Assembly (NCBI RefSeq): GCF_003334315.1
Contig: NZ_QOWR01000001.1
Source of the DNA: Escherichia coli
GTDB lineage: Bacteria; Pseudomonadota; Gammaproteobacteria; Enterobacterales; Enterobacteriaceae
DNA: 64,000 nt
Reading direction: 5' to 3' (one strand)
The translations under genes were made by a program, and so were the position numbers. The notes under the pieces were generated by a model that was not told where the DNA came from, ran no database searches, and saw only the letters and a list, made by a program, of their open reading frames with translations. Positions 33,731 through 33,790 of the stretch are shown piece by piece (position 1 is the first letter of the stretch; the number at the start of each line of letters is the position of its first letter).

Positions 33731-33790
33731 CCCGTACGTTCCCCTCACCCTAACCCTCTCCCCAAAGGGGCGAGGGGACCGTTCAGTACG
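33731..33790. repeat. GC-rich nested palindrome of uncertain class
   Basis: CCGTACG ... CCCCTCACCCTAACCCTCTCCCCAAAGGGGCGAGGGG ... CAGTACGG between the REP and the yhfS stop. Confidence 0.45.

What the first reader, a model, noticed from the sequence alone, without database searches (positions are those of the whole stretch)
33731..33790. Nested GC-rich palindrome next to a REP at the frl / yhf boundary
Downstream of the REP at 33671-33705 lies an outer inverted repeat (CCGTACG...CAGTACGG) enclosing an inner one (CCCCTC...GAGGGG) around CCCTAACCCTCTCCCCAAAGGGG. It resembles small non-REP intergenic repeat families but I cannot assign a class by eye. It sits exactly where the frl operon meets the convergent yhf cluster, so it may act as a bidirectional terminator or insulator.
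Basis: seen in the sequence. Interest (0 to 1): 0.3.

Follow-up and report, generated by a model that had tools for sequence, protein, structure and literature searches.

The report
Known BoxC repeat copy in E. coli
The GC-rich "nested palindrome" between frlR and yhfS is one already-catalogued copy of BoxC, a short repeat found about 20 times in E. coli intergenic DNA whose function has never been shown, and nothing found here supports it acting as a transcription terminator.

Summary
At window 33741-33776 (minus strand) lies CCCTCGCCCCTTTGGGGAGAGGGTTAGGGTGAGGGG. This is letter for letter, and at the same K-12 coordinates, TMECO no. 15 of Holder et al. 2015, and it is HPG1 no. 38 of Kaplan et al. 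2016. The family is the E. coli BoxC repeat, also called the PIT element. The "nested palindrome" comes from the family's three-block build: two CCCTCNCCC blocks can each pair with one GGGCGAGGG block. The outer 6-bp stem (CCGTAC/GTACGG) is specific to this allele and is about what chance gives. The family occurs in all 5426 complete E. coli genomes searched (median 17 places per genome), and the same core occurs in distant phyla. The terminator/insulator reading is not supported. No U-tract follows the hairpin on either strand. Published work reports no terminator activity for PIT elements. Published BCM data place a Rho-dependent termination region about 80 nt beyond the element. The element does sit at a structurally variable junction: 2107 genomes lack the frl operon, 342 lack the yhf cluster with the break right at BoxC, and some alleles have a half-deleted BoxC. 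That agrees with the published link to local genome instability. Verdict: already known, low interest.

The parts
33741..33776 (-). BoxC / TMECO core, type 'A mm'. The minus strand reads CCCTCGCCCC-TTT-GGGGAGAGGG-TTA-GGGTGAGGGG. On the + strand the blocks are CCCTCACCC 33742-33750, TAA, CCCTCTCCC 33754-33762, AAA, GGGCGAGGG 33768-33776.
   Evidence: Exact match to the published pattern CCCTCNCCC N3-6 GGGNGAGGG N3 GGGNGAGGG. Identical in sequence and K-12 coordinates (3,504,892-3,504,857; window offset +3,471,116) to TMECO no. 15 in Table 1 of PMC4666352. Listed as HPG1 no. 38 in PMC5100583. The minus strand carries a canonical G4 motif, GGGGAGAGGGTTAGGGTGAGGGG.
33738..33796 (-). Full family-conserved BoxC unit (about 59 bp): the core plus a 5' flank (aaattccgtactgaaCGGTC on the G-strand, + strand 33777-33796) and a 3' flank (GAAC, + strand 33738-33741).
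   Evidence: Alignment of all 23 K-12 copies gives the type A consensus aAaaa.g.gc.Cg.aCgGTC | core | GaAcag.ccg.c. The length agrees with the 51-59 bp (typically 56 bp) given for BoxC.
33732..33737 (.). Left arm (CCGTAC) of the outer 6-bp stem. Allele-specific, not a family feature.
   Evidence: Pairs with 33786-33791 in the RNA and DNA folds. Absent from the other 22 K-12 copies and from the O157 allele.
33786..33791 (.). Right arm (GTACGG) of the outer stem. It lies inside the family 5' flank but has diverged from it: other alleles read GACCGTCCG(A/G)GCG here.
33670..33705 (-). REP element: GCCGGATGCGATGCTGGCGCATCTTATCCGGCCTAC on the minus strand.
   Evidence: Matches the canonical REP head and tail motifs. 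Inverted repeat I3. Sub-threshold Rfam naRNA4 hit at 33673-33732.
33686..33727 (+). Perfect 13-bp GC-rich hairpin (33686-33698 / 33704-33716), formed by the REP plus a partial inverted duplicate, followed by GTTGAATTTT. This is the most terminator-like feature downstream of frlR.
   Evidence: I2, 100% complementary. The terminator scan's only hit is 33705-33720 plus AATTTTACAT. Inference only, and not experimentally supported: no Term-seq 3' end is listed there.
32936..33667 (+). frlR coding sequence, last gene of frlABCDR. Its stop is 74 nt before the BoxC core.
   Evidence: NC_000913.3 annotation and ORF list.
33819..34904 (-). yhfS coding sequence, convergent with frlR. Its stop is 42 nt from the BoxC core. 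A yhfS transcript that continued past its stop codon through the element would carry the G-rich strand.

Best explanation
This is one ordinary copy of the E. coli BoxC repeat, also published as PIT element, TMECO no. 15 and HPG1 no. 38. It is a roughly 56-bp non-coding intergenic repeat built from three GGGNGAGGG-type 9-mers, one inverted and two direct. As single-stranded DNA or RNA it can form a hairpin. The G-rich strand can also form an intrastrand purine-motif triplex or a G-quadruplex in vitro. At this locus it most likely has no dedicated regulatory role. It travels with the right end of the frl gene module, together with a REP. It is transcribed through rather than terminating transcription. 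Its main biological consequence is probably that it is a structure-prone, repeated sequence at a junction between gene modules, where deletions and replacements recur. What is shown here or in the literature: its identity, its copy number, its in-vitro structures, and the variability of the locus. What is inferred: that transient non-B structures during replication or repair raise the local indel and rearrangement rate. An equally possible minor role is as an RNA 3' hairpin that slows exonucleases, in the way REPs do.
For: Identity. The 36-mer, its coordinates and its strand equal TMECO no. 15 and it is listed as HPG1 no. 38. The BoxC family is given as 56 bp with 32-33 copies in K-12. There is a copy in the fabI-ycjD spacer; from memory, fabI (envM) is the locus where BoxC was first described.
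Copy number. It is present in 5426/5426 E. coli genomes, with a median of 17 and a maximum of 28 places per genome. 80,776 places are chromosomal and 37 are on plasmids.
Structure. Hairpin folds have z-scores of -2.4 to -3.8, and the G4 motif is present. Holder et al. showed by CD and NMR that the identical 'A mm' oligonucleotide forms a triplex with Tm 74 C, and Kaplan et al. showed a hairpin/G4 switch by CD.
Not a terminator.
Variable junction. The locus has three structural alleles. The K-12 type (frlR-REP-BoxC-yhfS) is in 2952 genomes, 2865 of them with the element plus its own flanks intact. The O157 type (frlR-REP-BoxC-trpS), with the yhfS-yhfZ cluster absent and the break immediately after GACCGT of BoxC, is in 342. 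The yhfL-yhfS type, with no frl operon, REP or BoxC, is in 2107. A fourth allele (strain elppa4) has lost the left two-thirds of BoxC in a 52-bp deletion. Holder et al. found TMECO loci significantly more variable than control intergenic sites.
Neutral amplification rather than selection for a perfect structure. Most E. coli copies share the same destabilising G.A mismatch (13 of 23).
Against: In-vivo DMS footprinting by Holder et al. did not detect a stable triplex, and the double-stranded form is ordinary B-DNA. Cause and effect at variable junctions are not separated: repeats may simply accumulate where insertions are tolerated. At this locus the module boundaries lie at the stop codons of yhfS and trpS as much as at BoxC. 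The near-identical three-block core in distant phyla (Burkholderiales, Methylomirabilota, Contendobacter), with lineage-specific flanks, argues for some selected or actively propagated property that a 'neutral junk' reading does not explain. The frl and yhf genes are poorly expressed in the published datasets, so a weak effect on 3' ends cannot be excluded.
Confidence: 0.8

Rival explanations
1. Bidirectional intrinsic terminator or insulator between the convergent frl and yhf transcription units. The hairpin would stop RNA polymerase coming from both sides.
For: It lies between convergent genes, 74 nt and 42 nt from the two stop codons. It forms stable RNA hairpins on both strands. Six of 16 HPG1 copies in K-12 lie between convergent genes, and Kaplan et al. 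speculate about a terminator role. The minus strand shows no other canonical terminator between the yhfS stop and frlR.
Against: No U-tract follows the hairpin on either strand. PIT elements showed no terminator or promoter activity in the functional study cited by Holder et al.. The published BCM data place a Rho-dependent region at window 33856 on the + strand, beyond the element, with 60% coverage retained downstream without BCM, and no Term-seq 3' end is listed at the element. Many copies sit upstream of genes or inside operons. The closing outer stem is allele-specific. 2107 genomes manage the yhfS 3' end without it, apparently using the yhfL hairpin plus T-run instead.
Confidence: 0.07
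2. Footprint or substrate of an unidentified structure-specific DNA transaction, such as a RAYT/IS200-like single-strand transposase, a recombinase or a nucleoid protein that recognises the three GGGNGAGGG blocks. BoxC copies would then be, or have been, actively mobilised, and solo copies would be halves of an inverted type A-spacer-type B composite element.
For: The same three-block core recurs in many copies in unrelated phyla with lineage-specific loops and flanks: 145 copies in the sampled part of Mitsuaria, plus Methylomirabilota, Contendobacter and another MAG. It is also on plasmids or chromids of Klebsiella, Sinorhizobium, Rhizobium, Azospirillum and Aeromonas. Copies are often in fixed-orientation inverted pairs. 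Solo type A copies in K-12 retain the first ~12 nt of the A-B spacer, gaacaggcc.gcac. The G/T dimorphism at the same block position recurs across lineages although it breaks the hairpin, which suggests the sequence rather than the pairing is read.
Against: No recurrent transposase-like ORF lies next to 166 copies in four genomes; only large paralogous families such as ABC ATPases and LysR regulators were found. There are no consistent terminal inverted repeats or target-site duplications. No clean empty site exists at this locus. Holder et al. assigned nearly all copies in 56 E. coli strains to 63 conserved loci, meaning little recent movement.
Confidence: 0.08
3. Regulatory G-quadruplex / hairpin / duplex switch (Kaplan et al. 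2016). Ion- or supercoiling-dependent switching of the G-rich strand would tune transcription of the neighbouring genes.
For: A canonical G4 motif lies on the minus strand. CD evidence shows a K+-dependent switch in oligonucleotides. The element is always intergenic.
Against: There is no functional class or distance preference of neighbouring genes. NMR favoured a triplex over a G4 for the same oligonucleotide, and no in-vivo structure was detected. Here it lies downstream of both genes, not in a promoter region. About 41% of E. coli genomes lack an intact copy at this locus.
Confidence: 0.05

Closest known systems
BoxC repeat of E. coli (Bergler et al. 1992; Bachellier et al.; annotated in the original K-12 GenBank record), equal to the PIT element (Hoyne/Maher 2000, 2002) and to TMECO (Holder et al. 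2015, NAR 43:10126)
   Same: Same sequence, same coordinates, same strand: this copy is TMECO no. 15, type 'A mm'. It is intergenic, about 56 bp, GC-rich, an imperfect palindrome, and present in about 20-33 copies per K-12 genome.
   Different: Nothing differs in the core. Only this allele has an extra 6-bp outer stem formed by its flanks.
[quoted passage not shown] 2016, NAR 44:9083)
   Same: The same copy is listed as HPGQ no. 38, between frlR and yhfS, midpoint 3,504,863, minus strand.
   Different: This is a different structural reading (G4 versus triplex) of the same repeat. No function has been demonstrated.
REP / BIME elements
   Same: They are short, GC-rich, palindromic, intergenic and multi-copy, and are often found at 3' ends of operons. 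A REP lies 36 nt away (33670-33705).
   Different: The sequence family is different: BoxC has no GTAG...GCCGGATG consensus. BoxC has a third, unpaired G-block. There are about 20 copies rather than about 300-500. No associated RAYT transposase is known or was found. No gyrase, IHF or Pol I binding is known.
Rho-independent (intrinsic) terminator
   Same: A GC-rich RNA hairpin downstream of a stop codon.
   Different: There is no 3' U-tract on either strand. No 3' end is mapped here. PIT elements were reported to lack terminator activity.
MITEs (e.g. ERIC/IRU, Correia, RUP)
   Same: Dispersed, non-coding, sometimes occurring as inverted pairs that form a long composite palindrome.
   Different: The unit is only about 50-60 bp. 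It has no terminal inverted repeats matching a known IS and no target-site duplications.

Membership tests
BoxC / PIT / TMECO | Matches the pattern 5'-CCCTCNCCC N3-6 GGGNGAGGG N3 GGGNGAGGG-3' | tested here: met
   Regex match on the minus strand at 33776-33742. The 36-mer is identical to K-12 copies no. 7 and no. 11 and is itself no. 15.
BoxC / PIT / TMECO | Multi-copy and dispersed (about 20-33 copies per K-12 genome) | tested here: met
   19 blastn places in an MG1655 record (H24) and a median of 17 across 5426 genomes. 23 K-12 copies were retrieved and aligned. The literature gives 23, 32 or 33 copies.
BoxC / PIT / TMECO | Intergenic location, unit length 51-59 bp | tested here: met
   It lies between the frlR and yhfS stop codons. 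The family-conserved span is 33738-33796, 59 bp.
BoxC / PIT / TMECO | The G-rich strand forms an intrastrand purine-motif triplex | not testable with these tools
   ViennaRNA models only the hairpin. Holder et al. showed by CD and NMR that the identical 'type A mm' oligonucleotide forms a triplex in vitro (Tm 74 C), but did not detect it in vivo.
HPG1 G-quadruplex motif | Four G3+ tracts with loops of 1-7 nt plus an upstream C-rich tract | tested here: met
   GGGGAGAGGGTTAGGGTGAGGGG preceded by CCCTCGCCCC. Listed as HPGQ 38.
Intrinsic terminator | GC-rich hairpin immediately followed by a U-rich tract | tested here: not met
   The hairpin is present, but there is no T-run. The + strand tail is GACCGTTCAG, or AATTTAGCTT after the outer stem; the - strand tail is TTAGGGTGAGGGG, or GATGTAAAAT after the outer stem. 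The scan reports nothing at 33730-33800.
Intrinsic terminator | A mapped RNA 3' end at the site | tested here: inconclusive
   No 3' end is listed for frlR or at coordinates 35048xx/35049xx in the Term-seq tables of Adams et al. 2021. The only nearby entry is a Rho-dependent region at 3,504,972 (+). Expression of these genes in LB and M63 is low, so absence of a signal is weak evidence.
REP / BIME | REP consensus (GCCGGATG...CTTATCCGGCCTAC) with a conserved GTAG tetranucleotide | tested here: not met
   The element at 33731-33790 lacks these motifs. They are present in the neighbouring REP at 33670-33705.
MITE | Terminal inverted repeats plus target-site duplication, and empty sites in relatives | tested here: not met
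   Conservation stops within about 20 nt of the core and no consistent direct repeats flank it. The alleles show a partial deletion or replacement of the whole module, not a clean empty site.

The most novel reading that the evidence does not exclude
BoxC copies are half-sites of an inverted type A-spacer-type B composite element. Its three GGGNGAGGG blocks would be read by an as yet unknown structure- or sequence-specific protein (a single-strand transposase, recombinase or repair factor). That system would create gene-module junctions like frl|yhf, and it would explain why the same core is multi-copy in phyla as distant as Gammaproteobacteria, Burkholderiales and Methylomirabilota.
Probability: 0.08. 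Interest if true: 0.55.

Novelty: already known. Interest (0 to 1): 0.1.

Why it matters
For this finding, little: the element, and even this specific copy, has been in the literature since the 1990s and was re-catalogued in 2015 and 2016. The family itself remains a small open problem. It is a roughly 36-nt three-block motif, conserved and multi-copy across distant bacteria, with well-characterised in-vitro structures (hairpin, triplex, G4). No function has been demonstrated, and there is only a statistical link to local genome variability. The frlR/yhfS junction illustrates that link well. Three structural alleles and a half-deleted BoxC segregate in E. coli, so the locus could serve as a natural test site for whether BoxC causes module junctions or merely marks them.

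Tried and rejected
Rfam scan of 33000-34500 at permissive E-values. Only sub-threshold naRNA4 hits on the REP were found, and nothing for the element.

Terminator and promoter scan. Nothing was found at the element.

Looking for a BoxC remnant at the other ends of the variable modules. The yhfL-frlA junction (28540-28575) has only the yhfL terminator hairpin, and the yhfZ-trpS spacer (41394-41517) has two REPs. No second BoxC exists in the window. The O157 and frl-less alleles are therefore not simple BoxC-to-BoxC recombination deletions of the K-12 arrangement.

Search for a gene family recurrently adjacent to the motif. I took 791 ORFs within 400 bp of 166 copies in four distant genomes and ran all-against-all blastp. 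Only generic large families turned up and no transposase candidate.

Idea that 'GCAC' on both sides of type A copies is a target-site duplication. With all 23 copies aligned, the left GCAC is a weakly conserved part of the family flank, and the right one belongs to the conserved start of the A-B spacer. It is therefore part of the element, not a duplication.

It gives examples of distant occurrences, not a taxonomic census, and E. coli itself was not reached.

Dar and Sorek 2018 supplementary tables are not held, so no second 3'-end dataset could be consulted.

The current RefSeq annotation of NC_000913.3 carries no repeat feature at this position, so the historical 'BoxC' GenBank feature could not be checked directly.

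Full report
WHAT IS THERE. The window is E. coli K-12-like. A 3.5-kb stretch around the finding differs from MG1655 at one base (35277), and window coordinate + 3,471,116 gives the NC_000913.3 coordinate. frlR ends at 33667 on the + strand and yhfS ends at 33819 on the - strand. The 151-bp spacer between them holds three features:
- a REP at 33670-33705, with the canonical head and tail on the minus strand;
- a perfect 13-bp hairpin at 33686-33698 / 33704-33716, made by the REP and a partial inverted duplicate, followed by GTTGAATTTT;
- the reported element.
The inner arms are CCCCTC 33741-33746 and GAGGGG 33772-33777. The outer arms are CCGTAC 33732-33737 and GTACGG 33786-33791.

ANATOMY. The "nested palindrome" is better described as three 9-mer blocks. 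On the + strand these are CCCTCACCC (33742-33750), TAA, CCCTCTCCC (33754-33762), AAA and GGGCGAGGG (33768-33776). The single G-block can pair with either C-block, each with one mismatch. Read on the minus strand, the sequence is CCCTCGCCCCTTTGGGGAGAGGGTTAGGGTGAGGGG.

IDENTITY. That 36-mer fits the published pattern CCCTCNCCC-N3-6-GGGNGAGGG-N3-GGGNGAGGG. Table 1 of Holder et al. 2015 (PMC4666352) lists exactly this sequence at 3,504,892-3,504,857, antisense strand, as TMECO no. 15, type 'A mm'. That paper states that TMECO is the motif first described as BoxC in the 1990s and rediscovered as the PIT (potential intrastrand triplex) element by Maher's group. Kaplan et al. 2016 (PMC5100583) list the same copy as HPG1 no. 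38: frlR >>> 74 nt, midpoint 3,504,863, minus strand, 56 nt <<< yhfS. Two further papers give BoxC as 56 bp (range 51-59), with 32-33 copies annotated in K-12. I retrieved all 23 K-12 copies and aligned them. The type A consensus is aAaaa.g.gc.Cg.aCgGTC | core | GaAcag.ccg.c. In the window the family-conserved unit therefore spans about 33738-33796, which is 59 bp. A copy also lies in the fabI-ycjD spacer; from memory, fabI (envM) is the locus where BoxC was first described.

IS IT MORE THAN CHANCE? The core certainly is. A 23-nt degenerate pattern is expected 0.00 times per window. blastn of 33721-33800 finds matches in all 5426 complete E. coli genomes, with a median of 17 and a maximum of 28 places per genome, almost all chromosomal. 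The outer 6-bp stem is not. The other 22 K-12 copies have only 2-5 bp of flank complementarity and the O157 allele of this very locus has 3 bp. A 6-mer match between two 20-nt flanks is expected in roughly 5% of copies by my calculation. The right arm lies in the family's 5' flank, but that flank has diverged here: the O157 and elppa4 alleles read GACCGTCCG(A/G)GCG, closer to the family consensus, where K-12 has GACCGTTCAGTACGG.

THE TERMINATOR/INSULATOR IDEA. Neither strand has a U-tract after the hairpin, and the consensus scan finds nothing at the element. Its single hit is the REP-derived hairpin. Holder et al. summarise the functional study of Hoyne and Maher: PIT elements showed no promoter or terminator activity and no effect on RNA polymerase. 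In the supplementary tables of Adams et al. 2021 (PMC7815308) no curated Term-seq 3' end is listed for frlR or at coordinates 35048xx/35049xx. The only nearby entry is a Rho termination region peaking at 3,504,972 on the + strand (window 33856), antisense to yhfS. Its coverage upstream/downstream is 55/33 without bicyclomycin and 66/144 with it, giving a Rho score of 3.6 and p = 1.3e-6. At the resolution of 800-nt windows, this fits plus-strand transcripts passing through the REP and BoxC and being stopped by Rho inside yhfS. Coverage is low, so this is suggestive rather than conclusive. K-12 copies also occur upstream of genes, between tandem genes and inside operons such as pstA-pstB and yihS-yihR, which does not fit a dedicated terminator. 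I therefore rate the terminator/insulator reading at about 7%.

THE LOCUS IS STRUCTURALLY POLYMORPHIC. Across the 5426 genomes the locus has the following alleles.
- K-12 type (frlR-REP-BoxC-yhfS): 2952 genomes. In 2865 of them the element with its own flanks is intact.
- O157:H7 type: 342 genomes in which frlR-REP-BoxC abuts trpS directly. The yhfS-yhfZ cluster is absent and the sequence diverges immediately after GAGGGGACCGT, the end of BoxC.
- frl-less type: 2107 genomes in which yhfL abuts yhfS. The whole frl module, including the REP and BoxC (window 28575-33817), is replaced by 29 bp.
- Half-deleted BoxC, seen in strain elppa4: a 52-bp deletion removes the left two-thirds of BoxC and leaves GAGGGGACCGT. 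About 87 genomes have the K-12 arrangement but fall below 80% coverage of the 80-bp element probe (the difference); elppa4 is the only one of them I inspected.
This matches the categories Holder et al. describe ('region missing', 'TMECO mutated') and their claim that TMECO loci are more variable than control spacers. It does not show causation. The module boundaries coincide with stop codons as much as with BoxC. The distal ends of the modules carry REPs or a terminator hairpin rather than a second BoxC, so the alleles are not BoxC-to-BoxC recombinants.

BEYOND E. COLI. It still showed the same core in Mitsuaria chitosanitabida (Burkholderiales; 145 copies in the part sampled), a Methylomirabilota MAG (13 copies), a Ca. 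Contendobacter MAG and another MAG. Each lineage has its own loops and short flanks. In Mitsuaria the unit is Ct | core | TCTTCGGGC. Copies are frequently arranged as inverted pairs in a fixed orientation. blastn against plasmids finds related sequences in Klebsiella, Sinorhizobium, Rhizobium, Azospirillum, Aeromonas, Enterobacter and Citrobacter. The variable base of the first block is T or G in several lineages, although G creates a G.A mismatch in the hairpin and weakens the triplex. In E. coli the mismatch form is the commonest. This looks like amplification from a master copy, or readout of the sequence, rather than selection for a perfect structure. I found no transposase-like gene recurrently next to the copies.

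MECHANISM, WITH CONFIDENCE. Identity as BoxC/TMECO is essentially certain. The most likely account of what it does here is as follows.
- It is a passenger repeat at the right end of the frl module.
- It is transcribed through.
- It can form hairpin, triplex or G4 structures when single-stranded. This is shown in vitro by others for the identical oligonucleotide.
- It is associated with elevated local indel and replacement rates. The association is shown; the replication/repair mechanism is inferred.
A REP-like role as a 3' RNA hairpin that slows exonucleases is possible and untested. The rivals are a terminator/insulator (about 0.07), the substrate of an unknown protein-mediated DNA transaction (about 0.08) and a G4 regulatory switch (about 0.05).

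VERDICT. The repeat-family guess was right and can now be given its name. The functional guess is not supported. The element is already known, down to this exact copy, so interest is low (0.1). The residual interest lies with the family, whose function remains unknown despite cross-phylum conservation.

Noticed in passing
window 33686-33727: A perfect 13-bp GC-rich hairpin (GCGCCAGCATCGC / GCGATGCTGGCGC), formed by the REP and a partial inverted duplicate of it, followed by GTTGAATTTT. It is the most terminator-like feature downstream of frlR, and it also forms on the minus strand.
   Followed up: partly
window 28575-33817: The whole frlABCDR module with its REP and BoxC is an insertion/deletion polymorphism. 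2107 of 5426 E. coli genomes have yhfL next to yhfS, with 29 bp (GCATTCTTTTCGAAAACATCATTCACAAG) in its place. The left boundary falls right after the yhfL terminator hairpin (28540-28563 plus TATTTGTTTCT) and the right boundary at the yhfS stop codon.
   Followed up: partly
window 33783-41517; L004 1743-1800: In O157:H7-type genomes (342 of 5426) the yhfS-yhfZ cluster is absent. frlR-REP-BoxC is joined to the trpS stop codon through about 12 bp of unrelated sequence, and frlD is a pseudogene in the strain examined.
   Followed up: partly
L003 1168-1276 (strain elppa4): In this allele of the frlR-yhfS spacer a 52-bp deletion removes the left two-thirds of BoxC and the T-run after the REP hairpin. 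There is also an 8-bp insertion (ATTGCCGA) nearer yhfS. The deleted segment and the retained right side both begin with GA, a 2-nt microhomology.
   Followed up: partly
window 33856 (NC_000913.3 3,504,972, + strand): Published DirectRNA-seq with and without bicyclomycin (Adams et al. 2021, supplementary file 2) places a Rho-dependent termination region here, antisense to the 3' end of yhfS. This fits frl-side transcription running into yhfS.
   Followed up: partly
window 41394-41490: Two REP elements in opposite orientation (a BIME-like pair) lie between yhfZ and trpS, at the other edge of the variable yhf module.
   Followed up: no
L009, L135, L137, L138, L139 (K-12 paired copies) versus solo copies L008, L010, L141: Type A and type B BoxC copies form inverted pairs, in three of the five pairs joined by a 28-29-nt spacer (gaacaggccggcactggcgcgaatattta). 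Several solo type A copies keep the first ~12 nt of that spacer, so solo copies look like truncated halves of a composite palindromic element.
   Followed up: partly
L023-L129 (Mitsuaria chitosanitabida), L015-L022 (Methylomirabilota MAG): The same three-block core is highly multi-copy in distant phyla, with lineage-specific loops and flanks. In Mitsuaria the pairs are almost always in (-,+) orientation with gaps of 30-270 nt. In E. coli and the Methylomirabilota MAG they are mostly (+,-).
   Followed up: partly
L008 278-318 (adk-hemH spacer, K-12): Another BoxC copy lies within about 35 nt of what looks like a REP start (the flank ends in ggccggat). BoxC-REP adjacency may therefore recur beyond the frlR locus.
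   Followed up: no
window 35277: A single base difference (C in the window, T in MG1655 NC_000913.3) within yhfT. It is the only difference in the 3.5 kb compared.
   Followed up: no
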